Origin: an uncultured bacterium
GTDB lineage: Bacteria > Verrucomicrobiota > Kiritimatiellia > CAIQIC01 > Lenti-01
Reading direction: 5' to 3'
DNA: 36,736 nt
Assembly: GCA_902766695.1 (NCBI GenBank)
Contig: CACXEY010000163.1
Location: 1 to 36,736, forward strand
The notes beneath the pieces are model-generated. The model saw nothing but the letters and a program-made list of their open reading frames with translations. It had not been told where the DNA came from and searched no databases. Shown one piece after another: positions 2,203 through 31,821 of the stretch. Positions within the stretch are counted from its first letter, which is position 1. Each line of letters starts with the position of its first letter. The position numbers and the translations under genes are program-made.

Positions 2203-3444
2203 ATGAACACAACCGCCCCCCAAACCCGCGTGTTTCAGTGGTCCCGGCTCGCGGCCATCGCCGCGCTTTCAGCCTGCTGTTTTTTCTTTTTCCGAATGCA
2301 CGGCGTTCCCATGCTTCGGACGGTTTCGGTTTCCGCGGGCGTGGGATTGTTCTTCGTCTTTCTCTGGCTTGCGGAATCCCGGAGCCAACCGCCCCAGGCG
2401 CGTTCCGGGAAAAAACGGGATGGATTCGACTGGGGAATGCACTACATGCGGGGGTTCGCCATCGTCTGCATCATGCTCTCCCATTTCTGCGTGCGAACGG
2501 GCTGGCCCCGGTTCTCGGCGGGGTTTCTGCGGAGTTCGACGGTCTTCTTCCTCTTCATCTCGGGCTATCTCTGCCAATACCTGGCCTTCCGCCGTCCCGT
2601 GGACACGGGACAGTACTATCTTTCGAAGGTGAAGAATGTCATTTCGCCCTATGTCGTCTGTTCGCTCGCCACGCTGGCGGCCGTTTGCCTCCTCCATGCC
2701 AAGCGTGCTGGCGTGATCGCCCCCTCCGAAATCTCCCTACGGTCCTTGCCCAACATCCTGCTTCTGGGCTGGGCCCAGCGCCCATATTGGTACATTCCCT
2801 TCGTCGTCATCCTCTTCCTCGTTTCGCCGTGGCTGACCCGCATCGGCAACCGGACGCTTCTCTGGCTGCTGGTGGTTTCCTTCTTCGCGGCAGTCTGCTT
2901 TCCGGGCCGGCCCTTGGGAAACCTGACGTGGAACCCGGTTGTCTCCCTGTATCGGTATGTCTATTTTACCTGGGCATACCTGCTGGGGTTCGCCTACGCG
3001 CGCTGGAAGGCCCGGATTGATCCGCACCTGGGTGCTTATGCCATCCCGGCCTTGCTGCTGGGCATCCTCCTCGGCTTCCGCACCATGTTCCCGGCCGGCC
3101 AGTATTCGGACTTCATTCTTTCCGGCTCTTTCGCCTGGTCCGTGCAGAAACTCTTTTTCCTGGTTCCCGTCCTCTGGATTGCCAACCGGGTCCGCTCCGT
3201 CCGCATCCCCCTTTTCGACTGGCTCGCGACCTACAGTTTCACCCTTTTCTTCCTGCACCATTTCTTCATCCAGGACTATATCGGCCTCATGGCCCGGGTG
3301 TCCGGCACCCTCGGGGCCGGCACGTTGGTGCAGACCGCCGTCCACATCGCCCTGACCGTGGTGTTCCTTGCCCAGAACCTCCTGCTGGCCGTCATGCTGA
3401 AACAGGTCTGCGGACATTGGTCCCGGCAATTCATTGGGGCGTGA
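2203..3444 (+). CDS. Acyltransferase family 3 (AT3) integral membrane O-acyltransferase with an N-terminal ~80-aa two-TM extension
   Basis: 413-aa multi-pass hydrophobic protein. It has the AT3-type entry motif (MRGFAIVCIMLSHF) and many further TM segments. It has its own promoter and an ATG start. Confidence 0.8.
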   Translation: MNTTAPQTRVFQWSRLAAIAALSACCFFFFRMHGVPMLRTVSVSAGVGLFFVFLWLAESRSQPPQARSGKKRDGFDWGMHYMRGFAIVCIMLSHFCVRTGWPRFSAGFLRSSTVFFLFISGYLCQYLAFRRPVDTGQYYLSKVKNVISPYVVCSLATLAAVCLLHAKRAGVIAPSEISLRSLPNILLLGWAQRPYWYIPFVVILFLVSPWLTRIGNRTLLWLLVVSFFAAVCFPGRPLGNLTWNPVVSLYRYVYFTWAYLLGFAYARWKARIDPHLGAYAIPALLLGILLGFRTMFPAGQYSDFILSGSFAWSVQKLFFLVPVLWIANRVRSVRIPLFDWLATYSFTLFFLHHFFIQDYIGLMARVSGTLGAGTLVQTAVHIALTVVFLAQNLLLAVMLKQVCGHWSRQFIGA

Positions 3445-3554
3445 TTGTTTCCGCAGAAGCGGATGACGTCCAATGTCTGCGCAAGTTTTCCTGACGGTGG
3501 GGGGGCATGCTCCCCCACCCTGGTCGAAGCCAGTGGAACATAATTGACCCTGAA

Positions 3555-3597
3555 AAGAGCAGTTGAGCGACACTTCGAGTGTCGCTCAACTGCTCTT
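3555..3597 (-). terminator. 43-nt perfect palindrome between convergent genes; likely terminator of the long minus-strand operon
   Basis: aagagcagttgagcgacact / agtgtcgctcaactgctctt forms a 20-bp perfect stem with a 3-nt loop. On the minus strand it is followed by TTTTCA. There is no T-run on the plus-strand side. The palindrome explains why both strands give ORFs starting MSLNCS. Confidence 0.7.
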
Positions 3598-3608
3598 GTA
3601 ATATCAAA

Positions 3609-4706
3609 TCACGGCATGGTGGCTCGTTTCCCCCACCATCGGAGCAAATTGCTTGTTGGATTGGCCAAAAACCATGGCCAACTATAACGCGAAACCCAAG
3701 TCAGAACGGCAACGGTCAGGAGGGTTTCGATTGTCCAGGCGAGCAAACCGCCGGGCATCAGATGGGTTTTCTCCATCCCATGGATTACATAGAAGAAAAA
3801 CCTATGATACACGTAAATGACGAGGGTCGCACTTCCCCACTTGGCCAACAATCGATTTGCCCGCATCACCCGCATGACAAAGAGGCACGACAGCGAACTG
3901 AGCAACAAATAGAGACATCTCAATCCCATTTTTGCGCAAGCGATACTCCAGCCAACCGGTTCACCCCACCAATCGCTGCTGGTCCTGCCATCCCAGTAAC
4001 TCCACTTGCAATGGTGAACGAAACTCAAGTTGACATCGGGCAAGACCTGCCAAAAAAGGAAAAAGAGGCCAATCAACCCCACCCAGGCAAGCCAATTGGG
4101 GATTTTGCGGATGCCCCACCGCCAATCCCACGCCGCCGTGTAATACCCCGCCAGGAAAAACGGGGAAAAGGCCAAGGCCCGTTGAACGGCAAAGGCGCCG
4201 GATACAGGGAGAAAACCACTCAGGATGCTTATTGCGACGCTCACCATGAATGCCAAAGCACATCGTCGAGGCCCGGCATTCGCCGGAGGCAACAGAAATA
4301 CTCCAATTCGCCAATAGACCAAAGCCAGCAAATACCAGTAAGTCGTTGCGGGACTTATCCAAAGTTTGATGGTCGGCGACGCCCCCTGGAAAATGGCAAA
4401 AAGAACCCAGAAAACATGAAAGCACAAAAAGGTCTCAAGCAGTCTTATGATGTTGCGGAAATAGCGCTTGCGGTCGTGGAGGTGAGTGAAACGACCTGAA
4501 ACAAACACAAACAGGGGCATGTGAAAAGCATAAATCGTATTGAAAACCGCCAGATCCAATGTCCCTGGATTATGAATAAAATGCCCATAAACGACCAAGA
4601 CAATCAAAACAAATTTCAGGGTGTCCCAATAGAGATCGCGTTGGGGTTTGCCTTCCGGGCCCGGGTGAGGGGCAGATTGAAAGTCAAGTGTTGCAACGTC
4701 TTTCAT
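3609..4706 (-). CDS. Acyltransferase family 3 (AT3) membrane O-acyltransferase
   Basis: 365 aa with ATG at 4706. AT3-type N-terminal motif WDTLKFVLIVLVVYGHF, then about 9-10 hydrophobic helices. GC is visibly lower than in flanking genes. Confidence 0.85.
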   Translation of the reverse strand: MKDVATLDFQSAPHPGPEGKPQRDLYWDTLKFVLIVLVVYGHFIHNPGTLDLAVFNTIYAFHMPLFVFVSGRFTHLHDRKRYFRNIIRLLETFLCFHVFWVLFAIFQGASPTIKLWISPATTYWYLLALVYWRIGVFLLPPANAGPRRCALAFMVSVAISILSGFLPVSGAFAVQRALAFSPFFLAGYYTAAWDWRWGIRKIPNWLAWVGLIGLFFLFWQVLPDVNLSFVHHCKWSYWDGRTSSDWWGEPVGWSIACAKMGLRCLYLLLSSLSCLFVMRVMRANRLLAKWGSATLVIYVYHRFFFYVIHGMEKTHLMPGGLLAWTIETLLTVAVLTWVSRYSWPWFLANPTSNLLRWWGKRATMP

Positions 4707-4762
4707 GTCGGGGAATCAGTTCCTGCATTGAACACACATTGGCAAAGAAGCACGCACAACCA

Positions 4763-5704
4763 CTACATCCCGTATTTCAGCCAACCGAAAAACCGCTTCG
4801 TTTGCAGTTTGAGAATGCACCAAGAAAGCAAGGCGGCGCACCCCAAGACCACGGTGAACTGGATCAAGCTGTTGTCCAGAGCCGGAAGTCTGGATGCGGC
4901 CAACAAATGCACGGCATCGGCAAAAACGAAATGCGTGACGAAAATCAGGATGCTCATCTTCCGCAATGTCACGTACGCGGGGCGAAACGTGATGGGGCAG
5001 TCCAGGAAGAGGGAAAACAGTGCGACGGTAAATGCGGCCCGGGCAAAAGGAAGCAATGCGGGAACACGCATTCCGGCATACAGCACGGGCAAGGCCATCA
5101 AACGCGCCCAGGTTGTTTCCCCCCTCCACCGGGAAAGGGGAGCCAACAACGAACCGACCTGAATCCACAACAGGAAGGGCAAAAAAGAATGTGATCCCCA
5201 CAGGACATCCATTCCCCAATGATATTGGAAAATGGCATGGGCGGCAAACGTCGCGAACAAGGCCGCGAGCGGGTGAAGGCATTTGCGCAACAGCTGGACG
5301 ACGGGAACCCCGATCATCAATGCCATGATGAAATAGGACCCCCTGAAGGTCGATCCCAAGAAAAGACATTTGGAAAAGGAAACCCAATCAAAATGCGCAT
5401 GCCACTTCTGTATGGCGATGGTGCAGGGAAGGAGAAGCACGAACCAAAAGGCATAAAAAACGGCAAGTCGCCTGACATAGTGGAACAGGGTTTGCAGGTT
5501 GACCACGGGTTTCCGGAAATAGAGATAGGACGAAACGACGAAAAAAACCGGAACGGCAAAACCCGGACAAAACGCAAAACTCAACCATCCATACTCTTTG
5601 AACAAGTGGGTATGGATGGAAACGACAAGCAAGGCCATGCAAAACTTCAGAACATCAAGCCCGGGCAATTGCTCCTGCCCGCATTTTCCGCAATCCGTCG
5701 TCAT
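4763..5704 (-). CDS. Acyltransferase family 3 (AT3) membrane O-acyltransferase
   Basis: The ORF track starts at a TTG (5761). I prefer ATG 5704, which is preceded by gagaAAGGAAAgaaa. Motif LDVLKFCMALLVVSIHT, then multiple TM helices. Lower GC than neighbours. Confidence 0.8.
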   Translation of the reverse strand: MTTDCGKCGQEQLPGLDVLKFCMALLVVSIHTHLFKEYGWLSFAFCPGFAVPVFFVVSSYLYFRKPVVNLQTLFHYVRRLAVFYAFWFVLLLPCTIAIQKWHAHFDWVSFSKCLFLGSTFRGSYFIMALMIGVPVVQLLRKCLHPLAALFATFAAHAIFQYHWGMDVLWGSHSFLPFLLWIQVGSLLAPLSRWRGETTWARLMALPVLYAGMRVPALLPFARAAFTVALFSLFLDCPITFRPAYVTLRKMSILIFVTHFVFADAVHLLAASRLPALDNSLIQFTVVLGCAALLSWCILKLQTKRFFGWLKYGM

Positions 5705-5761
5705 TTTCTTTCCTTTCTCACAGAGAGGTTTGAAACTCCACCGCCCGTTCCTGCCGCACAA

Positions 5762-6937
5762 TCACCCGTGCGCCTGGTTTTGCAAAAAGGCGACGATGTC
5801 CCGGACGACCCGTTCCGCCGCATGGCCATCTTCGACATTGCCGATTTGGGCCAGGAAACGGGCCCGTTTTTCTTGCAACGCTTCCGGGTCGAAAGAACGG
5901 ATTTCCGAGAGCAATCCGGGAAAGGTTTCGGAGATGGGATAGGGAAGGTCTTCGCAGGGCATGTAAAAACCGCGCTCGACCTTTTCATAATGGTTCCTGT
6001 CGGGGGCGAACAGGAAGCAGGGTTTCGGAGTGAGCGCGAAATCGAAGAGGGAACCCGAATAATCCGTAATCAGGACATCGGTGCAGGCCAGGTATTCCGC
6101 CATGTCGTCCGCGGCATTCCCGTCCACGACGGTTTGTCCGTCGACGGGCAAAAGCCTGTCGGCCTTGATTTGTTCCAGGACCCTGGCGTGGACCCGGAAA
6201 ACGAAGGCAAATTGCCCGCCGAATTTTTGGCCGAGGGCCGCAAGGAGCCCGGGAATGTCCATTTGGCGCACTTGTTCGATGCCGCTCCACGCCACGTCGT
6301 CGCGGAAGGTGGGGGCAAAGAGGACCAGCCGCTTTTGGGGCAGTCCCAGCTTCCGTTTCAGGGCCACCGGATCGGGGGGGGCGAACAGCAAATCGTTCCG
6401 GGGGGTGCCGTACAAGCGGATCCGGTTTTCCAGCAGGAACGCGCGATTCAGGCAATCGGCCGTGTAGCGGCATCCCGCGATGCAGTAGTCGGAACTCGTT
6501 GCGTATCCGGATGGCTTCCACCGCAGCAAATCCCCCCCGATTTTCTTCAGCGGGGTTCCATGCCACGTGGAGATGCACAATTGCCGTTTGTTGCGGGCGA
6601 GCCATTTCCTGAATCCGCCCCACGGCCCGTGGAACCCCAATTGTGCGACCCCGACATAGTTGTCGACGACCACGGCGGCCGTCTTCAAAAGCCTGAAATA
6701 CGCCCGTGACGGATACGGAACGACTTCGACATACTCCGGGGGCCGGTTCCGGCATTTTCTGGAAATGCACCAAATGATTTTGGTGTCCGGCGAGACATCG
6801 TGCAGTTTTTCCGAAATGTACTTCGGATTGTCGTTGTATTGCCCCCTGAAACTGCGGAAAAACACCGTATTGGGCAACGTGTGCCGGAATTTGGACAGAA
6901 CGCTTTCGCGGAAAACAGGAAAGCTCGACATGGTCAT
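5762..6937 (-). CDS. CDP-glycerol glycerophosphotransferase (TagB/TagF family, Glyphos_transf)
   Basis: Trimmed from ORF 5762..7237 to the ATG at 6937 (MTMSSFP). Family hallmarks: FRSFRGQYNDNPKYISEKL, WHGTPLKKIG, FAPTFRD, DVLITDYSGSLFDFALTPKPCFLFAPD. Its start overlaps the upstream gene's stop (ATGA). Confidence 0.9.
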   Translation of the reverse strand: MTMSSFPVFRESVLSKFRHTLPNTVFFRSFRGQYNDNPKYISEKLHDVSPDTKIIWCISRKCRNRPPEYVEVVPYPSRAYFRLLKTAAVVVDNYVGVAQLGFHGPWGGFRKWLARNKRQLCISTWHGTPLKKIGGDLLRWKPSGYATSSDYCIAGCRYTADCLNRAFLLENRIRLYGTPRNDLLFAPPDPVALKRKLGLPQKRLVLFAPTFRDDVAWSGIEQVRQMDIPGLLAALGQKFGGQFAFVFRVHARVLEQIKADRLLPVDGQTVVDGNAADDMAEYLACTDVLITDYSGSLFDFALTPKPCFLFAPDRNHYEKVERGFYMPCEDLPYPISETFPGLLSEIRSFDPEALQEKRARFLAQIGNVEDGHAAERVVRDIVAFLQNQAHG

Positions 6938-18759: not shown

Positions 18760-19632
18760 TCACGACTCCGTTTCCGCGATGCTTTGTTCGAGGGAAAAGA
18801 GGCGGTAATCCCGGGGGTGGTCGCCGAGGCCGGGGGCGTAGGCGAGGTTGCCGAAGGCCTTGTCCACGTAGGGGGAGAAGCGGGAGAGGAGCTTGAGGAG
18901 GGGGGAGAAGCCGGGGACGAGCGGGAGGTTTTTGCCGCGGGCGCGGGCGATGAGGCGCACGAGTTCGGAGGTGTTGGAGAGTTCGGCGTTGCAGGGCCAG
19001 AAGGTGCCGGAGGCCGCGTCGTCGACGAGGAGGCGGACGAATTCGGCGAGGTTGCCGACGTAGAGCATGGAGCGGGCGTTGGCGACCTTGGGGAAAAAGG
19101 GGAGCTTCGCGGCCATCTTTTCGAGGATGGGGAAGTTGCCCTTGGAGCCCTTGCCGTAAATCATGGGGCAACGGAGGATGGCGACCTTGAAGCTGTCGGA
19201 GGAGAGGGGGCGGAGTTTGAGTTCGGCCTGGAGCTTGCTGTCGCCGTAGAAGTTGGCGGGGGCGGGCGGGGTGTCGCGGGTGATGGTCTTGGATACGCCG
19301 ATGGGGGCGGAGTCGCCGTAGACGATGGCCGAGGACATGAAGATGAACTGTTTGACGCCCTCCGCCTTGGCCTTGGCGGCGGTTTCGGCCGGGAGCTCGG
19401 AATTGACCTTGTAGTAGAGGGCCTTGCGCTCTTCCGAGACATGGCCGACATCCGCGTGGGCGAGGCCGGCGACATGGAACACGGCGTCGTAGGGGGAGAA
19501 GTCCGCCGTCCGCCAATCGGGGGATTGCATGTCGATGGCGGAAACGGAATAGCGGTCAGGCCATTGGGCGAGGTGGGCCTGGATGGCGGACCCGACGAAG
19601 GAACCGGTGCCGGTGATCAGGAGGCGTTTCAC
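18760..19632 (-). CDS. NAD-dependent nucleotide-sugar epimerase/dehydratase (SDR, extended)
   Basis: LLITGTGSFVGS Rossmann motif and YGDSKLQAE (YxxxK). GTG start with GGGAGGA 6 nt upstream. The start overlaps the stop of the regulator gene (GTGA). Confidence 0.85.
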   Translation of the reverse strand: MKRLLITGTGSFVGSAIQAHLAQWPDRYSVSAIDMQSPDWRTADFSPYDAVFHVAGLAHADVGHVSEERKALYYKVNSELPAETAAKAKAEGVKQFIFMSSAIVYGDSAPIGVSKTITRDTPPAPANFYGDSKLQAELKLRPLSSDSFKVAILRCPMIYGKGSKGNFPILEKMAAKLPFFPKVANARSMLYVGNLAEFVRLLVDDAASGTFWPCNAELSNTSELVRLIARARGKNLPLVPGFSPLLKLLSRFSPYVDKAFGNLAYAPGLGDHPRDYRLFSLEQSIAETES

Positions 19633-21155
19633 GGGAAGTCCTCCCGTGTGTGTGGGGGGGCGGCGGAGTTCAAGTCGGCCGGATTGGAAGAAGAGGGGAC
19701 AAGGTGGTAGCCGCCGGTTTTGGGACTGCCATGGTGTTCGAGAAGTCCGGCGAGGTCGTTGACGGCCCGGGCAATGGTTTTGACATCAACCTCAAGTGCC
19801 TTGGCCAATTGACGACGGTTGATGCCTGGACATTGCCTGACGAGTTCAAGGACTTTGTCTTTTACAGGGACATTTACAGGGACATTTACAGAGACATTTA
19901 CAGGGACATTGGAAATTGTCCCATCATTTTTCGGGACACTGTTGTTTATTCCATCATTCGACGGGGAATCGACGACGAACCAATCGGAGGAGAGAGCGAG
20001 GGAGGTTTGGAACATATCTCCTTCCAGGAGAGTGGGTTCGGAACCGGCAAATGGGCGGGAATACTTGAAGAGCTTGCGGACGCCGGAACCGAGTTCGTCG
20101 GCGAAACCGATGGTTCGGAAGAAGGCGGCGATGACGGGATTTTTGGAGTCGGGTTCGAGGTTGGCGGGGGTGATGGGCCCTTGGCGGGCGGCACGACAGG
20201 GATTTTCCGTCCAGAGGCGACCGGGTTCGATGACGAAGCGGGAACGGCGGGAACTCGTGAACTCGCGGTGGATGAGAAGGTTGACGAGAAGTTCGCGGAC
20301 GACAATGTCGCGGACGCTGACGCGCCGGGCGTCGTCGTCGAGGAAGAACGGATCGGGGAGGTGCTTGGCGGCGAAGGCCATGAGGCGGTCGACGCTTTCG
20401 ACGAGGTTGGTCTGGACGAGGTCGCGGTCGTCGTAGCGGTCGAGCTGGACACGGCGGAAAAGGGCGTCCGTCCCGTAGGCGGGGCAGACGTCGAGGATGA
20501 GGTCGTCGGTGCCCAAAAGGAGGATGGCGGCGAGATTGAACCCCTTTTCGCCGGTGAGCTTGTCTTCCCCGAAAAGGCGGGAGCTGCGAAAGAGTTCTTC
20601 GTCGGACATGTCCGCCCACGGATGGTGGCCGCCCGCGAAGTTGGATGCGCGGGTGCGGATGCGGGGGAGGAGGTCGAGGCGGAGGTCGGAAGGTTTGACG
20701 TAAGGGTAAATCTTGCGCTCGGTGTAGATTTGCTGTTTGCGGATGGCGAGTACGGCGATTTCGGAGGAAGAGACGACCTTGACGTCGGCGTCGGCAAGGC
20801 GATCGTAGATGGTCCCCTTGAAGCGGTGGATGTCCGGGGTTTGGGGGACATGGAGATGGATGACGGTTTTCCCGTCGACGGACAGGATTTGGGGGTCAAG
20901 GTGGACGGCGGGGAGGAAGAGGTTGGGGTTTCCCAAGTTGTTGACGAGGTTGCGGACAAGGGAGGGGGCATGGGAGGGGGGGATGCCTTCGACGGAGCCG
21001 TTGTCGAGAACACCGAAATAGATGTCGCCGCCGAAGCGGTTGAGGAAGGCGCAGACGGTTTCGTAGGTGTCGGGGGGGATGCCGTTGCCGCAACGCTTGA
21101 ACTCGACGGCGACCGTTTCGCCGATGGAGAAGGTTTGCTGGAGGGCATGGGTCAT
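19629..21155 (-). CDS. AlbA_2 (Schlafen-type divergent AAA) + HATPase_c_4 + C-terminal winged-HTH putative transcriptional regulator ('RecG-like' family)
   Basis: Trimmed from ORF 19629..21371 to ATG 21155 (MTHALQQTF). N-terminal ETVAVEFKRC...FLNRFGGDIYFGV. Central ELLVNLLIHREF...ENP...KNPVIAAFFRTIGFADELGSGVRK. C-terminal VLELVRQCPGINRRQLAKALEVDVKTIARAV. Confidence 0.75.
   Translation of the reverse strand: MTHALQQTFSIGETVAVEFKRCGNGIPPDTYETVCAFLNRFGGDIYFGVLDNGSVEGIPPSHAPSLVRNLVNNLGNPNLFLPAVHLDPQILSVDGKTVIHLHVPQTPDIHRFKGTIYDRLADADVKVVSSSEIAVLAIRKQQIYTERKIYPYVKPSDLRLDLLPRIRTRASNFAGGHHPWADMSDEELFRSSRLFGEDKLTGEKGFNLAAILLLGTDDLILDVCPAYGTDALFRRVQLDRYDDRDLVQTNLVESVDRLMAFAAKHLPDPFFLDDDARRVSVRDIVVRELLVNLLIHREFTSSRRSRFVIEPGRLWTENPCRAARQGPITPANLEPDSKNPVIAAFFRTIGFADELGSGVRKLFKYSRPFAGSEPTLLEGDMFQTSLALSSDWFVVDSPSNDGINNSVPKNDGTISNVPVNVSVNVPVNVPVKDKVLELVRQCPGINRRQLAKALEVDVKTIARAVNDLAGLLEHHGSPKTGGYHLVPSSSNPADLNSAAPPHTREDFP
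19861..19908 (-). repeat. Four tandem 12-bp in-frame repeats (tttaca-g(g/a)gaca) encoding (NVPV/NVSV)x4
   Basis: Direct reading of 19861-19908 shows three identical units and one with a single substitution. The repeats lie in the linker just before the wHTH of the regulator. Confidence 0.9.
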
Positions 21156-21219
21156 GCGGCACTCCGACAAACGGTGGGAATGGGGGGGGCACTGAGCGAC
21201 GCCCTGTTTGCGGGGGCCT

Positions 21220-22083
21220 TCATTCGGTGTCCTCTTTTTTGCGGAGCGCGCCGGTGCCACCTTCGACGACGCCCTCTCCGCGGGCGACGGAGAAGACGGT
21301 GCCGAGGAAGCAGCGGCAGTCGAAGAAAAAGGCATGGAAGCCGCCGCGGGCGAGGTGGGCGGTGTAGTCACCGTCGAAGCGGGCCTTGACGGGGATTTCG
21401 AGTTCGTCCCGGCCGTTGATCTGGGCCCAGCCGGTGAGGCCGGGCTTGGGGGCGTTGGCGCCGTACTTGTCGCGTTCGGCGGTGAGGAGGTCCTGGTTCC
21501 AGAGGGCGGGACGGGGGCCGATGACGGACATGTTGCCGATGAAGATGTCCCAGATCTGCGGGAGTTCGTCGAGGGAATGGGCGCGGATGAAACGGCCGAT
21601 GCGGGTGATGTAGCGGCCGGGGTCGCCGAGCATGTGGGTGGGGACGTCGTGGGGGGTGTCCATCTTCATGGAACGGAACTTGTGGACGCGGAAGAAGCGT
21701 TTGTCCTTGCCTACGCGCTTCTGGGAAAAGAGGACGGGGCCGGGGTCTTCCAGAACGATGGCGAGGGAGATGGCGAGAAGGACGGGGGAGAGCAAGACAA
21801 GGCCGAAGAAAGAGAGGATGAGGTCGAGGGCGCGCTTGACGAAGCGGGAGTAGAACGTTTCGTGGAGGATGGCGGGGCCGGTCGCCACGAGATGGCCGCG
21901 GGCCCCGTCGGCGTTGGGCGGATCGTCGGCCGATTCGACGAACACGACGGACTTGCCCTCGACGGGATTGCGGTCGGAAGGGGAGTCGGCGTAAATGGTA
22001 CCGGGACGGAGGATGACGGCCAGGAGGGCGAGAATCAGGAACAGCCCGGCAAGCGTGGCGGCAATGGCGAGCAAAACGGTCAT
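21220..22083 (-). CDS. Undecaprenyl-phosphate sugar-phosphate transferase (Bac_transf, PglC/WbaP-C-like priming enzyme)
   Basis: Trimmed from ORF 21220..22371 to ATG 22083 (MTVLLAIAA). KRALDLILSFFGLVLLSPVLL...PVLFSQKRVGKDKRFFRVHKFRSM...DELPQIWDIFIGNMSVIGPRP. Confidence 0.9.
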   Translation of the reverse strand: MTVLLAIAATLAGLFLILALLAVILRPGTIYADSPSDRNPVEGKSVVFVESADDPPNADGARGHLVATGPAILHETFYSRFVKRALDLILSFFGLVLLSPVLLAISLAIVLEDPGPVLFSQKRVGKDKRFFRVHKFRSMKMDTPHDVPTHMLGDPGRYITRIGRFIRAHSLDELPQIWDIFIGNMSVIGPRPALWNQDLLTAERDKYGANAPKPGLTGWAQINGRDELEIPVKARFDGDYTAHLARGGFHAFFFDCRCFLGTVFSVARGEGVVEGGTGALRKKEDTE

Positions 22084-28087: not shown

Positions 28088-29332
28088 TCAGGCGCGGGCG
28101 TCGAGGAGGGAGAAGGCTTCGGTGAGGAGGGAGCGGTGGTGGCCGGGGGCGAGGACGAGGTGGTTGCCGAGGGGGCGGGAGAGGAGGAGGTCCAGGGCGT
28201 CGGAAGGAATGCGGACGAGGGCCTGGGTGCGGCATTGGCCGTCGTCGTGGGTGTCGGCGAGGAGTTCGCCTTCGGTGCACCAGCATTCGCCGAGGTCGGC
28301 GCCGCCGAGGCGCAGGAGGGTGACGGGGCCGCGCGGGAGGGTGCCGTCGATGCCGAGACCGAGGCCGGATTCGAAGTGGGTCTTGAAGGCGTAGGAGCCG
28401 ACGAGGCCGAGCGGGATGGTGCAGTGGGCGAGACGGAGGTCGCCGGTGGCGGGGTCTAGGGCGGCGGGGTTGGCCATCCAGGCGGGGCGTCCGGTCAGGT
28501 GCCAGAGCCAGCGGAGGGCGAGGATGGACGGGATGTCGCCTTCGCATCCGGCACTGATGCCGGAGTCGGCCAGCAGGGCGAGGGCCAGGCAGCCGGTGGT
28601 GCCGTCCTGGCGGACCCAGTCGAAGCACCGGACGGTGATGGCGGAGAGGGCGTACTTGGCCACGACGGCCTTCAGGGCCCGGTGGAGGGCGACGGCCTGG
28701 GCGTAGGCGGATTCGGACACGCCGTCGTGGGAGGTGGCGCCGCGCCAGGGGACGAGTTCGGACGGGGTGGGCGGCGTCGCCAGCTCTTGGCGCATGAGGG
28801 TGCGGACTTCGTCGAGGGTGACGGGTACGAGTTCGGCGCCGAAGCGGCGGCGCACGGTGGCGGCGTCCTGCGAACTGGCGACGAGCCAGTCGGACGGGGT
28901 GCCGATCTGGCCGATGCGTTCGCCGGCGAGGCGGCGGTTGGCGTCGAGGGCCTTGGCGGTACGGGCGATGGCGGAGAGGGTTCCGGCGTCGTCGGGGGCG
29001 CGGAGGAGGTGGATGCGGCCCTGGCCGCCGAGCTGGCGGACGCGGGCGAGGATTTCGAGGGAGGCCGGGAGGGAGTTGTGGCCGGGATGGGCGACGAGCA
29101 GTACGGGGCCGCGTCCGCCGGCGGCGCGCCAGGCGTCGATGCGGCGCAGTACTTCGCCTTCGACGCCGCCGGTGAGGACGAACCAGAAGGGGGTGTCGGC
29201 GGCGGCCGGAACGGGGTCCGGGGCGGGGGCGCCGCCGATGGACTGGAGGGCGCGGTGGAAGGCGCCGGTGGCGGCCTCCAGGGAGGCGGCATCGTGCAGG
29301 GGGGATGCGACGGGAATGTAGGGGAAGGACAT
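28088..29332 (-). CDS. L-fucose/L-arabinose isomerase-like family protein (COG2407-like); function tentative
   Basis: Trimmed from ORF 28088..29509 to ATG 29332 (MSFPYIPV). Size ~414 aa. The region ITVRCFD...GCLALALLADSGISAGCEGDIPSILAL resembles the FucI/AraA-like catalytic core. Motif-level recognition only. Confidence 0.5.
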   Translation of the reverse strand: MSFPYIPVASPLHDAASLEAATGAFHRALQSIGGAPAPDPVPAAADTPFWFVLTGGVEGEVLRRIDAWRAAGGRGPVLLVAHPGHNSLPASLEILARVRQLGGQGRIHLLRAPDDAGTLSAIARTAKALDANRRLAGERIGQIGTPSDWLVASSQDAATVRRRFGAELVPVTLDEVRTLMRQELATPPTPSELVPWRGATSHDGVSESAYAQAVALHRALKAVVAKYALSAITVRCFDWVRQDGTTGCLALALLADSGISAGCEGDIPSILALRWLWHLTGRPAWMANPAALDPATGDLRLAHCTIPLGLVGSYAFKTHFESGLGLGIDGTLPRGPVTLLRLGGADLGECWCTEGELLADTHDDGQCRTQALVRIPSDALDLLLSRPLGNHLVLAPGHHRSLLTEAFSLLDARA

Positions 29333-29444: not shown

Positions 29445-29601
29445 AGGGGGAAAAGGTGGCGGAAAAGTTCATGGGGGGAGGGATGAGGGGAAATGAGTGA
29501 AAAGGGCAATGTTTCTCATGTTTGCAAAAGTGGGGAGGGTGAGGGGGGAGAGAGGGGGGCGGGCGCGGCTGACAGCCGCGCCTCAGGAAGGAGGGGGGAA
29601 G

Positions 29602-29637
29602 AAAAACGGCGGTCTCCGGGTTGGGGAGGCCGCCGCC
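29602..29637 (-). terminator. Probable intrinsic terminator ending the BMC operon
   Basis: On the minus strand: cggcggcctcc - ccaacc - ggagaccgccg (11-bp stem with one mismatch) followed by TTTTT. It starts about 23 nt after the BMC-P stop. Confidence 0.45.
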
Positions 29638-29659
29638 AGGGAATGGAAACGGAAAGGGG

Positions 29660-29950
29660 TCAGTCCTTGACGTAGAGGGTCTTGCCGCCGATTTCCCAGG
29701 TGTCGACGATGGCCATGATGACGGCATCGACAGGACGGTTCTGGGTGATCGTGGTCTGGCGGGCGGAGGAGCCGGCCGCGGTCAGGACGTACTCGCCGGG
29801 ACCCGCGCCCATGGCGTCGGCGGCGACGACGAAGTTGCCGGTTTCCTTGCCGTCGGTGCCGACGAGGCGGACCAGCAGGAAGCGGATTCCGTCCAGGGAC
29901 GGCTCTTTGCGGGTGGATACGACGGTGCCGACGACTTTGCCGAGGTTCAT
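29660..29950 (-). CDS. BMC-P pentameric vertex shell protein (EutN/CcmL family, PF03319-like)
   Basis: 96 aa. [30 protein letters not shown]...[16 protein letters not shown]...[10 protein letters not shown]. Typical length and N-terminal motif. Confidence 0.9.
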
Positions 29951-30058
29951 GGGGTTCTCCGGGAGGGTGGACGGGATGGTCAGGAAGGGGGAAGGAATGG
30001 TGCGCGGGGAGGGCAGGGGGCTGTGGCCCGCCCGCCGGCCCTCCCCCGCGCGGAGGGA

Positions 30059-30361
30059 TTACTTCCGGCCCTTCGGGGCTTCGGGAGCGCGGCCCAGCGG
30101 CAGCACGGCGTCGACGTTGGCGTGCGGACGCGCGATGACGTGGACGGAGACGACTTCGCCGACGCGGCCGGCGGCGATCTGCCCGGCGTCGCAGGCGGCC
30201 TTGACGGCGGCGACGTCGCCGCGGACGATGACGGTGGTGAAACCGCCGCCGGTCTTTTCGTAGGTGACGAGTTCGACCTTGGCGGCCTTGACCATCGCAT
30301 CGGCGGCCTCGACGGTCGCGGGGAAGGAACGGGTTTCGATCATTCCGAGTGCATCTGCCAT
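30059..30361 (-). CDS. BMC-H hexameric shell protein (PduA/EutM-type, PF00936-like)
   Basis: 100 aa. [29 protein letters not shown]...[16 protein letters not shown], followed by a short basic C-terminal tail. AGAGG lies 7 nt upstream of the ATG. Confidence 0.92.
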
Positions 30362-30402
30362 AATTTTACCTCTTGTTGTTTCGGGGTTGCTTTTTTAAAT
30401 CT

Positions 30403-31689
30403 TCAGCGTCCGCCGCAGGCGGCGAGGGCTTCTTCCATCATCTTGACGGAGGAGGAGGCGCCGATGCGGGTGGCGCCGTTGCGGATCATGAGCATGGCGT
30501 CGGCGTAGGTGCGGACGCCGCCGGAGGCCTTGACGCCGAGCTTGGGGGCGACGGTGCGGGCCATGAGGGCGACGTCCTCGGCCTTGGCCCCGCCCTTGTT
30601 GAAGCCGGTGGAGGTCTTGACGTAGTCGGCGCGGGCCTTCATGGAAGCAAGGCAGGCCTTGACGATCTCGTCGGGAGTCAGCAGGCAGGTCTCGAGGATG
30701 ACCTTGAGCAGGCCGCGGCCGTCCTTGACGGATTCGCAGACGGTGCGGATGTCGCGCGCGACGCCGTCCCAGTCGCCGGACTTGGCCTTGCCGACGTTGA
30801 TGACCATGTCGATTTCGCGGGCGCCGTTGCGCATGGCGTTGCGGGCTTCCATGGCCATCATCTGCGCGGACATGGCGCCGAGCGGGAACCCGACGACGGC
30901 GCAGACCTTGACGGAGGAGCCGCGGAGGGCCTGGGCGGCGACGGGGACCATCGCGGAGTTCACGCAGCAGCTCCAGAAGTTGTACTGGATGGCTTCGGCG
31001 CAGAGTTTCTTCACGTCGTCGGCCGTGGCCTCGGGCTTGAGGAGGGTGTGGTCGATCATGCGCGCGAGCTGCTGGGCGGAAAGGTTGCCGGTGGCGGCCG
31101 CGACCTGGGCGCCGCCGACGGCGCAACCGCCGCCGACGATCTGCTTCACTCGCTCGGCGATCCGGGCGATGTCCTGGGGGCTGAGGTCCAATTTCATCTC
31201 CTTCATTGCGGCCATGACGGGCGAAGCCGCGCGTCCGGTCTCGAGGTCCTTGATCATCCGGACGCGCCGCAGGTGCCTCTCTTCGGTGCAGTCCGTGGCC
31301 AGGAAGGTCTGGATGATGCCTTTGGCCTGTTCGAAAGGGGTCTGTCCGGAGCCGAGGGTGAGGAGGTTGGCTCCGTTGTGCTGGCGGGAATTGCGGGCGA
31401 GGGCCTCGTTGTAGCAGGCGGCGGCGCGGACGCCGGGGATCTTGTTGGCGGTCATCGCGGAGCCGATGCCGGCGCCGTCGACCATGATGCCGACGTCGGC
31501 GCGGCCGGCGGCGACGGTACGGGCGACCTTGGCGGCGAAGACGGGGTAATCGACGGAGGGGGTCTTGGCGGCGGTGCCGACGTCGATGACGGCATGGCCG
31601 AGCGACTTGAGCCAGGAGGCGATCTGCTCCTTGAGCTCGAAGCCGCCGTGGTCGGCGCCGACGACGATTCTGCACGTTCCCGTTGACAT
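30403..31689 (-). CDS. Bifunctional fusion: RpiB/LacAB-type sugar-phosphate isomerase (N-terminal) + deoxyribose-phosphate aldolase DeoC/DERA (C-terminal)
   Basis: Only the last 428 codons of the 1420-aa ORF 30403..34665 are credible (ATG 31689, MSTGTCRIVVGADHGGFELK). The RpiB fold ends near ...ERHLRRVRMIKDLE. The DERA part has IDHTLLKPEAT, VVGFPLGA, EIDMVIN, YVKTSTGF and GVKASGGVR. Confidence 0.9.
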   Translation of the reverse strand: MSTGTCRIVVGADHGGFELKEQIASWLKSLGHAVIDVGTAAKTPSVDYPVFAAKVARTVAAGRADVGIMVDGAGIGSAMTANKIPGVRAAACYNEALARNSRQHNGANLLTLGSGQTPFEQAKGIIQTFLATDCTEERHLRRVRMIKDLETGRAASPVMAAMKEMKLDLSPQDIARIAERVKQIVGGGCAVGGAQVAAATGNLSAQQLARMIDHTLLKPEATADDVKKLCAEAIQYNFWSCCVNSAMVPVAAQALRGSSVKVCAVVGFPLGAMSAQMMAMEARNAMRNGAREIDMVINVGKAKSGDWDGVARDIRTVCESVKDGRGLLKVILETCLLTPDEIVKACLASMKARADYVKTSTGFNKGGAKAEDVALMARTVAPKLGVKASGGVRTYADAMLMIRNGATRIGASSSVKMMEEALAACGGR

Positions 31690-31821
31690 GATGCGGGAAG
31701 TTTCCTCCCGTACGGCGCGCGCGGCAAGCGGAAAGCGGGGGGGCGGGGTGAAACGGTTTACCCCGCGGCGGGGCGACTTGCGGCTTGCGGGGCGGGGCGG
31801 GGGCGGGGTATGGTGGGAGGC

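What the first reader, a model, noticed from the sequence alone, without database searches (positions are those of the whole stretch)
29602..31689. Compact three-gene microcompartment operon: RpiB-DERA fusion enzyme + one BMC-H + one BMC-P, with no aldehyde-dehydrogenase core nearby
Seen:
- Minus-strand genes 31689->30403 (RpiB-type isomerase fused to DeoC/DERA), 30361->30059 (PduA-type hexamer) and 29950->29660 (EutN/CcmL-type pentamer) are spaced 41 and 108 nt apart. They end at a hairpin plus T5 (29602-29637).
- Upstream is the divergent housekeeping gene def. Downstream are a separately punctuated isomerase-like gene and the convergent proS.
- No acylating aldehyde dehydrogenase, PduL/Pta, alcohol dehydrogenase, BMC-T or second BMC-H gene is in the window.

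Established:
- Catabolic BMCs (metabolosomes) normally co-encode that core together with several shell paralogs.
- DERA releases acetaldehyde plus glyceraldehyde-3-P, which is the kind of volatile toxic aldehyde that BMCs sequester.
- From memory, BMC locus catalogues (Axen et al. 2014; Sutter et al. 2021) list an experimentally uncharacterised 'PVM-like' type in PVC bacteria that includes DERA, but alongside the aldehyde-dehydrogenase core.

Inference: this is either a satellite of a main locus elsewhere, or a stripped-down aldolase compartment built from the two shell parts minimally needed to close an icosahedron. Placing a sugar-phosphate isomerase domain inside such a shell has not been tested.
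Basis: partly seen in the sequence, partly recalled or inferred. Interest (0 to 1): 0.75.

Follow-up and report, generated by a model that had tools for sequence, protein, structure and literature searches.

The report
Half of a split microcompartment locus
The three genes are real, but they are one half of a known, widespread bacterial organelle for breaking down deoxyribose-phosphate; the "missing" aldehyde dehydrogenase and other shell genes sit at a second site in a near-identical genome.

Summary
An RpiB–DERA fusion, one BMC-H and one BMC-P lie on the minus strand, 41 and 108 nt apart, and end at a strong hairpin plus U5. No aldehyde dehydrogenase or other shell gene is in the 36.7-kb window.

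The interpretation needs correcting. This is not a PVM-like or stripped-down compartment. It is the first module of the SPU (sugar-phosphate utilization) microcompartment, named in 2014 and found in more than 280 loci in 2021.

In about 100 genomes and metagenome contigs from many phyla the canonical order is fusion–BMC-Tdp–BMC-H–BMC-P–AldDH–BMC-T–BMC-P–BMC-P.

In rumen Kiritimatiellia this locus is split. MAG RGIG6649 carries the same three-gene cassette on contig 12 (99.1% nt identity; fusion and BMC-H 100% aa). It carries AldDH–BMC-T–BMC-P–BMC-P on contig 15.

The cassette holds the only aldolase and the only hexamer, so it is an essential half and not a redundant satellite. All three genes are under purifying selection (dN/dS 0.08–0.22). 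The fusion has an encapsulation-peptide-like helix in its linker.

The one lineage-specific oddity is a clean deletion of the CcmP-like BMC-Tdp gene. I rate it a new member of a known kind, with modest interest.

The parts
31690..31763 (-). Conserved 5' leader / promoter-proximal region of the cassette (GGTAAACCGTTTCAC...GGAGGAAACT..CCGCATC-ATG)
   Evidence: It is conserved in four different genomic contexts, and similarity to relatives stops at its upstream edge (alignment A1; blastn borders). No sigma-70 consensus was found. There is no Rfam match and no significant RNA fold.
30403..31689 (-). RpiB-DERA fusion gene (428 aa), the SPU signature enzyme
   Evidence: Pfam, NCBIfam and PDB matches. 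It is 78% identical to the fusion heading complete SPU loci L001-L004. dN/dS is 0.11-0.22.
31240..31674 (-). RpiB-type isomerase domain (aa 6-150)
   Evidence: Matches PDB 3ph3/3he8 at about 3e-36. D13, H14, Y48, H104, N105, R138 and R142 are invariant in 66 homologs. Asp71 replaces the catalytic Cys in all 66.
31135..31179 (-). Encapsulation-peptide-like amphipathic helix in the inter-domain linker (aa 171-185, PQDIARIAERVKQIV)
   Evidence: The AF2 model shows an isolated helix 171-185 between disordered stretches 164-168 and 186-199. The motif is conserved across phyla. It resembles the AldDH N-terminal peptide LTDQDIEAIAQRIAGD.
30436..31074 (-). Deoxyribose-phosphate aldolase (DeoC) domain (aa 206-418)
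   Evidence: Matches PDB 8qps at 1.7e-70 and the TIGR00126 equivalog. D294, K358 (VKTSTG) and K387 are invariant in 66 homologs.
30362..30402 (-). 41-nt spacer: the BMC-H leader, and the scar of a clean deletion of the CcmP-like BMC-Tdp gene
   Evidence: In L012 the same leader (GATTTAAAAAAAGCAACCCCGAAAAACAACAAGAGGTAAAATT-ATG) follows the Tdp gene. In the window it follows the fusion stop codon directly.
30059..30361 (-). BMC-H hexamer shell protein (100 aa, EutM/PduA-like), the only BMC-H of the system
   Evidence: PF00936, E 2e-29. Nearest NCBIfam model is EutM. dN/dS is 0.09-0.15. The second module (ALD-T2-P2-P3) has no BMC-H.
29660..29950 (-). BMC-P pentamer vertex protein (96 aa, CcmL/EutN-like)
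   Evidence: PF03319, E 6.6e-30. dN/dS is 0.08-0.12. It differs by one residue (I68V) from MBR3582230.1 of MAG RGIG6649.
29600..29637 (-). Intrinsic terminator (12-bp interrupted stem, 7-nt loop, U5) closing the operon
   Evidence: RNA fold gives -20.2 kcal/mol, z -3.0. It is conserved, and similarity to relatives ends just after it (alignment A2).

Best explanation
The cassette is a self-contained operon, running from a conserved leader to an intrinsic terminator. It forms module A of a split SPU-type (sugar-phosphate utilization) bacterial microcompartment in a rumen Kiritimatiellia bacterium.

Module A supplies three things: the signature cargo (an RpiB-DERA fusion carrying an internal encapsulation-peptide-like helix), the only shell hexamer (BMC-H), and one vertex pentamer (BMC-P).

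Module B lies at a second chromosomal site. It encodes an acylating aldehyde dehydrogenase with an N-terminal encapsulation peptide, a PduT-like BMC-T and two more BMC-P.

Inferred mechanism: the products of both modules co-assemble. Deoxyribose-5-phosphate from nucleoside or DNA breakdown enters the shell. The DERA domain cleaves it to glyceraldehyde-3-P and acetaldehyde. The co-encapsulated AldDH converts the trapped acetaldehyde to acetyl-CoA.

What is shown: gene identities, synteny, the split arrangement in a near-identical genome, purifying selection, and the helix motif. What is inferred: co-transcription, co-assembly, substrate and encapsulation.
For: 1. Canonical locus. The order fusion-Tdp-H-P-AldDH-T2-P2-P3 occurs in most of 80 genome loci and 80 metagenome loci from Kiritimatiellia/Verrucomicrobiota, Thermoanaerobaculia, Myxococcota, Planctomycetota, Calditrichia, Krumholzibacteriota and others. 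In Kiritimatiellia/Verrucomicrobiota it is often followed by DeoB-DeoA-PNP.

2. Split in RGIG6649. MAG RGIG6649 (GCA_017527155.1) contig JAFXQI010000012.1 carries fusion-H-P without Tdp. That cassette is 99.1% nt identical to window 29601-31763, with the fusion and H 100% aa and P 99% aa. Contig JAFXQI010000015.1 of the same MAG carries intact AldDH-T2-P2-P3. The NCBI accessions MBR3582230.1 (P) and MBR3582382.1 (AldDH) lie 152 apart.

3. Split in RGIG6903. This MAG has a fusion 92% identical to the window's and shows the same split: contig 55 carries fusion-Tdp-H-P and contig 35 carries AldDH-T2-P2-P3.

4. Stand-alone modules elsewhere. AldDH-T2-P2-P3 modules occur alone in many rumen contigs. 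Fusion-Tdp-H-P modules followed by unrelated genes also occur.

5. Encapsulation signals. The AldDHs keep the N-terminal peptide MRLTDQDIEAIAQRIAGD. The fusion linker has the related helix PQDIARIAERVKQIV.

6. Purifying selection. dN/dS is 0.08-0.22 for all three genes, including within the Tdp-less clade. Catalytic residues are invariant.

7. Literature. SPU is defined by PF01791 plus PF02502 with AldDH, and satellite loci arising by fission of a main locus are described (PMC8217296; PMC4207490).
Against: - The window's own genome was not available beyond a 47-kb contig (L092). Module B is shown in a near-identical MAG, not in the window strain itself.
- The window strain has a different flanking context (def/proS) from RGIG6649. 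MAG binning could in principle mis-assign a contig.
- No close Tdp homolog carries an RGIG6649 accession, so the shell differs from the canonical one.
- No expression, assembly or enzymatic data exist here.
- The RpiB domain has Asp in place of the catalytic Cys, so its activity is unverified.
Confidence: 0.85

Rival explanations
1. Stand-alone minimal aldolase compartment. One BMC-H and one BMC-P close an icosahedral shell around the RpiB-DERA fusion alone, with no encapsulated aldehyde dehydrogenase.
For: No AldDH or other shell gene lies within 29 kb on one side or 5 kb on the other. The cassette is a complete transcription unit with its own leader and terminator. From general knowledge, not tested here, BMC-H plus BMC-P suffice to form small closed shells in synthetic systems.
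Against: The near-identical cassette in RGIG6649 co-exists with AldDH-T2-P2-P3 on another contig. Those module B genes are intact, and the AldDH keeps its encapsulation peptide. Every complete relative locus pairs the fusion with AldDH. Releasing acetaldehyde inside a shell with no consuming enzyme has no obvious benefit.
Confidence: 0.05
2. Further reduced four-gene system. The window lineage pairs the fusion-H-P cassette with a solitary EP-bearing AldDH, having lost Tdp, T2 and the two extra BMC-P. The result would be a natural one-hexamer, one-pentamer metabolosome.
For: A BMC-type AldDH (P0259) with an intact N-terminal peptide stands alone, with no shell genes within 10 kb, in L099 and L100. 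L100 comes from the same metagenome sample (ERZ28653917) as L005, a fusion-H-P cassette 98% identical to the window's.
Against: A shared sample is not a shared genome. RGIG6649, which has the 99% identical cassette, has the full module B. The solitary AldDH is only 85% identical to RGIG6903's AldDH. The fusion-versus-AldDH divergence calibration predicts about 90-93% for the window lineage, which is closer to the 94% cluster that carries T2-P2-P3. L100 has 63% GC against 68% for L005.
Confidence: 0.07
3. Decaying remnant. The cassette is a non-functional leftover of a disrupted SPU locus, on its way to loss.
For: The Tdp gene has been deleted and the locus is fragmented.
Against: dN/dS is 0.08-0.22 in all three genes. 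Reading frames are intact and catalytic residues invariant. The exact fusion protein is found in 62 index blocks of the assembly collection (28 contigs). The leader and terminator are conserved.
Confidence: 0.03

Closest known systems
SPU (sugar-phosphate utilization) bacterial microcompartment loci (Axen et al. 2014, PMC4207490; Sutter et al. 2021, PMC8217296)
   Same: It has the DeoC-type aldolase (PF01791) plus RpiB-type isomerase (PF02502) signature, here fused as already noted for Marinimicrobia in 2014. The BMC-H and BMC-P are adjacent. The fusion is 78% identical to the one heading complete fusion-Tdp-H-P-AldDH-T2-P2-P3(-DeoB-DeoA-PNP) loci. The AldDH partner carries an N-terminal encapsulation peptide.
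   Different: The locus is split into two unlinked modules. The CcmP/CsoS1D-like BMC-Tdp gene between the fusion and BMC-H is cleanly deleted. The deoB/deoA/PNP genes are not adjacent. I could not assign one of the seven SPU subtypes because the supplementary data could not be read.
Satellite loci arising by fission of a main BMC locus (for example HO type I, Sutter et al. 2021)
   Same: A block of shell genes plus an aldolase sits away from the block containing AldDH. Relatives have the same genes contiguous (text).
   Different: Here the detached block contains the only BMC-H and the signature enzyme, so neither block is a self-sufficient 'main' locus.
PVM-like BMC
   Same: It occurs in PVC-superphylum bacteria and has an aldolase signature enzyme acting on a sugar derivative.
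   Different: [quoted passage not shown] The window has a class I DeoC aldolase fused to RpiB, with no PF00596 hit.

Membership tests
SPU-type BMC locus | DeoC-type aldolase (PF01791) encoded with shell genes | tested here: met
   PF01791 hit at aa 211-411. TIGR00126 equivalog scores 261 bits against a cut-off of 117. PDB DERA match at 1.7e-70.
SPU-type BMC locus | RpiB-type isomerase (PF02502) encoded with shell genes | tested here: met
   PF02502, E 2.6e-46. NF004051 subfamily scores 159 bits against a cut-off of 135. The rpiB equivalog TIGR01120 scores 137.0, just under its 138.65 cut-off. Asp replaces the catalytic Cys.
SPU-type BMC locus | BMC-H (PF00936) and BMC-P (PF03319) shell genes in the locus | tested here: met
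   E 2e-29 and 6.6e-30.
SPU-type BMC locus | Acylating aldehyde dehydrogenase (PF00171) in the locus | tested here: not met
   It is absent from the 36.7-kb window. It is present on a different contig of the near-identical MAG RGIG6649 (L017) and of RGIG6903 (L016), so the feature is met at genome level in relatives but not at locus level.
SPU-type BMC locus | Orthology and synteny with catalogued complete SPU loci | tested here: met
   The fusion, H and P are 78%, 90% and 85% identical to those of L001 and in the same order. The only difference is the missing Tdp.
SPU-type BMC locus | Cargo carries an encapsulation peptide | tested here: inconclusive
   A conserved amphipathic helix at aa 171-185 is flanked by disordered linker and resembles the AldDH N-terminal peptide. 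A targeting function has not been tested.
SPU-type BMC locus | Physical shell assembly and deoxyribose-5-P turnover inside it | not testable with these tools
   This needs expression, EM and enzymology.
PVM-like BMC | The PVM aldolase (pfam00596) as signature enzyme | tested here: not met
   The Pfam scan of the fusion gives only PF02502 and PF01791. No PF00596 hit appears in any scanned ORF of the window.
Satellite locus by fission (Sutter 2021 sense) | Genes contiguous in relatives are found at a separate site from the AldDH-containing block in the same genome | tested here: met
   RGIG6649 contigs 12 and 15, and RGIG6903 contigs 55 and 35, compared with contiguous loci L001, L009 and others.

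The most novel reading that the evidence does not exclude
This rumen Kiritimatiellia lineage (window, L005 and RGIG6649 types) may run a functional SPU metabolosome that has dispensed with the gated CcmP/CsoS1D-like double-stacked trimer (BMC-Tdp). About 100 other loci of this type retain that protein, and it has been proposed as the conduit for sugar phosphates. If the lineage truly lacks it, the trimer is not needed for deoxyribose-5-P entry, and substrate would pass through the single BMC-H or the PduT-like BMC-T. In the extreme version, some sub-lineages pair the cassette with a solitary AldDH and build a one-hexamer, one-pentamer shell.
Probability: 0.35. Interest if true: 0.45.

Novelty: new member of a known kind. 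Interest (0 to 1): 0.28.

Why it matters
The SPU compartment is one of the most prevalent predicted microcompartments, and it is thought to let anaerobes feed on DNA and nucleoside debris.

This case shows how misleading a single window can be. An apparent 'coreless, minimal' compartment is really half of a split locus.

Its modest added value is threefold.

- The split places the only hexamer with the signature enzyme, and places the AldDH with the trimer and two pentamers. The two modules must therefore be co-regulated in trans.
- A natural, selected deletion of the gated BMC-Tdp offers a ready-made test of what that shell protein is for.
- All fusion enzymes of this type carry Asp instead of the catalytic Cys in the RpiB domain, which deserves a biochemical look.

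Tried and rejected
1. Lateral transfer of the cassette. The cassette is 99% identical to L089-type contigs, while blastn gave neighbouring DNA as 85-87%. Per-gene dS showed that proS is also very close (dS 0.05-0.08, against 0-0.04 for the cassette), and only the nitroreductase is divergent. These are close relatives with a rearranged context, not clear inter-species transfer.

2. Pairing with the solitary AldDH. I tried to pair the window cassette with the solitary AldDH from the same sample as L005. The divergence calibration and the RGIG6649 result make this the less likely partner.

3. RNA element or promoter in the conserved leader. There was no Rfam match, no significant fold and no sigma-70 consensus.

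4. The 414-aa downstream gene as part of the system. It is absent next to the cassette in the other context and in RGIG6903, and it has no Pfam or PDB match.

5. JGI metagenome scan. It added only one close module A (L106) and one close module B (L105), with no co-occurrence information.

6. Literature. Every full-text search, DOI look-up and supplement search failed with time-outs. I therefore could not check whether SPU has been characterised experimentally. I recall, unverified, a 2024 study from the Kerfeld laboratory. I also could not assign an SPU subtype.
Full report
**Observation**

The three minus-strand genes are exactly as described.
- The 428-aa product of 30403-31689 has an N-terminal RpiB/LacAB domain (PF02502, E 2.6e-46) and a C-terminal DeoC domain (PF01791).
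- It passes the NCBIfam deoC equivalog cut-off, with 261 bits against 117.
- It matches solved DERA structures at 1.7e-70 over aa 206-418, and RpiB structures at about 3e-35 over aa 6-150.
- 30059-30361 is a BMC-H (PF00936, 2e-29) and 29660-29950 is a BMC-P (PF03319, 6.6e-30).
- The spacers are 41 and 108 nt.
- The operon ends in a hairpin of -20.2 kcal/mol (z = -3.0) followed by U5.
- def is divergent upstream and proS convergent downstream.
- The intervening 414-aa gene has no Pfam or PDB match and only a faint SftI-like hit.

Nothing else related to microcompartments is in the window. This was checked by tblastn with eight reference proteins and by Pfam scans of 36 coding-like ORFs. The remainder of the window is a polysaccharide-biosynthesis cluster.

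**What family this is**

The fusion has thousands of homologs. A 78% identical relative (P0047) heads a complete locus: fusion, CcmP/CsoS1D-like BMC-Tdp, BMC-H, BMC-P, AldDH (PF00171), PduT-like BMC-T, two more BMC-P, then phosphopentomutase, pyrimidine-nucleoside phosphorylase and purine-nucleoside phosphorylase.

I searched one representative genome per species with a chimeric query made of the window fusion plus that AldDH. I annotated the 80 returned loci by tblastn. I then repeated this on metagenome contigs.

The order fusion-Tdp-H-P-AldDH-T2-P2-P3 is the rule. It is seen in Kiritimatiellia/Verrucomicrobiota, Thermoanaerobaculia/Holophagales, Myxococcota, Planctomycetota, Calditrichia, Krumholzibacteriota, Anaerolineae and others.

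- Axen et al. [quoted passage not shown]
- Sutter et al. 2021 report more than 280 loci in 26 phyla and seven subtypes, all sharing PF01791 and PF02502, with AldDH converting the acetaldehyde (PMC8217296).

**Where the missing core is**

In the rumen Kiritimatiellia clade closest to the window, the locus is split.
- MAG RGIG6903 has a fusion 92% identical to the window's. It carries fusion-Tdp-H-P on contig 55 (L012) and AldDH-T2-P2-P3 on contig 35 (L016).
- Its NCBI accessions agree with one genome: MBR4189598-601 for module A against MBR4189203 for AldDH.

The decisive case is MAG RGIG6649 (GCA_017527155.1).
- Contig JAFXQI010000012.1 (L194) carries fusion-H-P with no Tdp. It is 99.1% nt identical to window 29601-31763, with the fusion and BMC-H 100% and BMC-P 99% identical in protein.
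- Contig JAFXQI010000015.1 of the same MAG (L017) carries intact AldDH-T2-P2-P3.
- The accessions MBR3582230.1 (BMC-P) and MBR3582382.1 (AldDH) are 152 apart.

Stand-alone AldDH-T2-P2-P3 modules recur in many rumen assemblies. Stand-alone fusion-Tdp-H-P modules recur in other relatives.

Module B contains no BMC-H and no aldolase. The window cassette is therefore not a redundant satellite. It is the half that supplies the signature enzyme and the sole hexamer.

**Is the cassette functional?**

- dN/dS against three relatives is 0.11-0.22 for the fusion, 0.09-0.15 for BMC-H and 0.08-0.12 for BMC-P. This includes the comparison within the Tdp-less clade.
- In 66 fusion homologs, the DERA residues D294, K358 (Schiff-base lysine motif VKTSTG) and K387 are invariant. 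So are the RpiB residues D13, H14, Y48, H104, N105, R138 and R142. The assignment of these residues to catalytic roles rests on my knowledge of E. coli DERA and RpiB.
- The inter-domain linker contains a conserved amphipathic motif, DLSPQDIARIAERVKQIV.
- An AlphaFold2 model (mean pLDDT 88) renders this motif as an isolated helix, aa 171-185, between disordered segments.
- The motif resembles the N-terminal peptide of the partner AldDHs, MRLTDQDIEAIAQRIAGD. That is the usual form of a microcompartment encapsulation peptide. Its targeting role here is inferred.

**Operon borders and context**

Similarity to relatives in three different genomic contexts begins about 75 nt upstream of the fusion start codon. 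It ends just after the terminator.

The window is the same strain as ENA contig ERZ27280006 k141_1729273 (100% over 16.3 kb). The cassette occurs in two contexts among near-identical strains:
- the def/proS context (window, L005, L186, L190);
- a 374-aa-ORF/SurA-like context (L089-91, L185, L187-189, L191-194, including RGIG6649).

I first read this as lateral transfer. Per-gene dS shows instead that the strains are simply close relatives with a rearrangement.

**Lineage-specific feature**

Relative to RGIG6903, the Tdp gene is cleanly deleted. The fusion stop codon is followed directly by the AT-rich BMC-H leader, which in L012 follows Tdp.

Among the ten protein clusters closest to the RGIG6903 Tdp, the only annotated NCBI accessions are from RGIG6903 and one unrelated MAG. 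None is from RGIG6649. This is consistent with loss, but it is not proof, because MAGs are incomplete.

A BMC-type AldDH with an intact N-terminal peptide and no neighbouring shell genes also exists (L099, L100). L100 is from the same sample as a Tdp-less cassette (L005). The divergence calibration and the RGIG6649 evidence make it an unlikely partner of the window cassette. I keep it as a low-probability rival.

**Mechanism**

The pathway is inferred from the family literature and from the deoB/deoA/PNP genes flanking complete relatives.
1. Nucleoside phosphorylases and phosphopentomutase yield deoxyribose-5-P.
2. It enters the shell, and the DERA domain cleaves it to glyceraldehyde-3-P and acetaldehyde.
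3. The co-encapsulated AldDH, encoded at the second locus, traps the acetaldehyde as acetyl-CoA.

The role of the RpiB domain is unclear. It carries Asp71 where characterised RpiBs have the catalytic Cys, and this holds in all 66 homologs. This is a family-wide trait, not a peculiarity of this window.

**Verdict**

This is a new member of a known, catalogued kind (SPU), in a split arrangement of a sort already described for other BMC types. The clean Tdp deletion is the one feature worth a follow-up.

Limits:
- Module B is demonstrated in a near-identical MAG, not in the window strain's own genome.
- All functional statements are computational.
- The literature search tool failed throughout. 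I could not verify whether SPU has been characterised experimentally, and I could not assign the subtype.

Noticed in passing
window 31474-31479 (fusion aa 71-73); all fusion homologs in L001-L088: The RpiB domain has Asp71 at the position of the catalytic Cys of E. coli and C. thermocellum RpiB, and Ala73 in place of Thr. This holds in all 66 fusion homologs from many phyla, while every other active-site residue is conserved. It may mark a distinct RpiB subfamily with a carboxylate base or an altered substrate.
   Followed up: partly
L048, L054, L056, L062, L065, L077, L087 (fusion linker region): Fusions from Myxococcota, Planctomycetota, Calditrichia and other phyla carry an extra Cys-rich insert of about 45 aa (for example CTCCGGDCGGHC...) after the EP-like helix. 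Kiritimatiellia fusions lack it. It could be a metal or Fe-S binding module.
   Followed up: no
L099 10001-11467; L100 8208-9674: A BMC-type acylating AldDH with an intact N-terminal encapsulation peptide stands alone between ileS and glycosyltransferase genes, with no shell genes within 10 kb. L100 comes from the same metagenome sample as the Tdp-less cassette L005.
   Followed up: partly
window 29601 and 31763; L089-L091, L185-L194: The cassette sits in two different genomic contexts in near-identical strains. Nucleotide similarity breaks exactly at the operon's leader and terminator, so the rearrangement breakpoints coincide with the transcription-unit borders.
   Followed up: partly
L095 8512-9729; L101 8473-9687; L102 4523-5737: In several rumen contigs the AldDH-T2-P2-P3 module has a divergent gene just upstream encoding a metalloenzyme/phosphomutase (PF01676 plus PF10143). 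A phage-type integrase lies one or two genes further upstream. These hint at a functional link or at mobility of module B.
   Followed up: no
window 3000-6000: A low-GC stretch (51-56% against a window mean of 64%) holds three Acyl_transf_3 genes inside the polysaccharide-biosynthesis cluster. It looks like a horizontally acquired or variable serotype-type island.
   Followed up: no
window 19629-21371 (-): A 580-aa protein has Schlafen AlbA_2, HATPase_c_4 and HTH domains and sits between polysaccharide genes. This kind of protein is often associated with defence or regulation.
   Followed up: no
window 28088-29332 (-): The conserved 414-aa protein downstream of the cassette has no Pfam or PDB match and only a faint sulfoquinovose-isomerase (SftI) similarity (26.6 bits). 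It travels with the def/proS context, not with the cassette.
   Followed up: partly
L052, L068, L078: Some deltaproteobacterial/Myxococcota SPU loci have the order fusion-H-P-AldDH-T2-P2-P3-Tdp. Fusion-H-P adjacency without an intervening Tdp has therefore arisen more than once.
   Followed up: no
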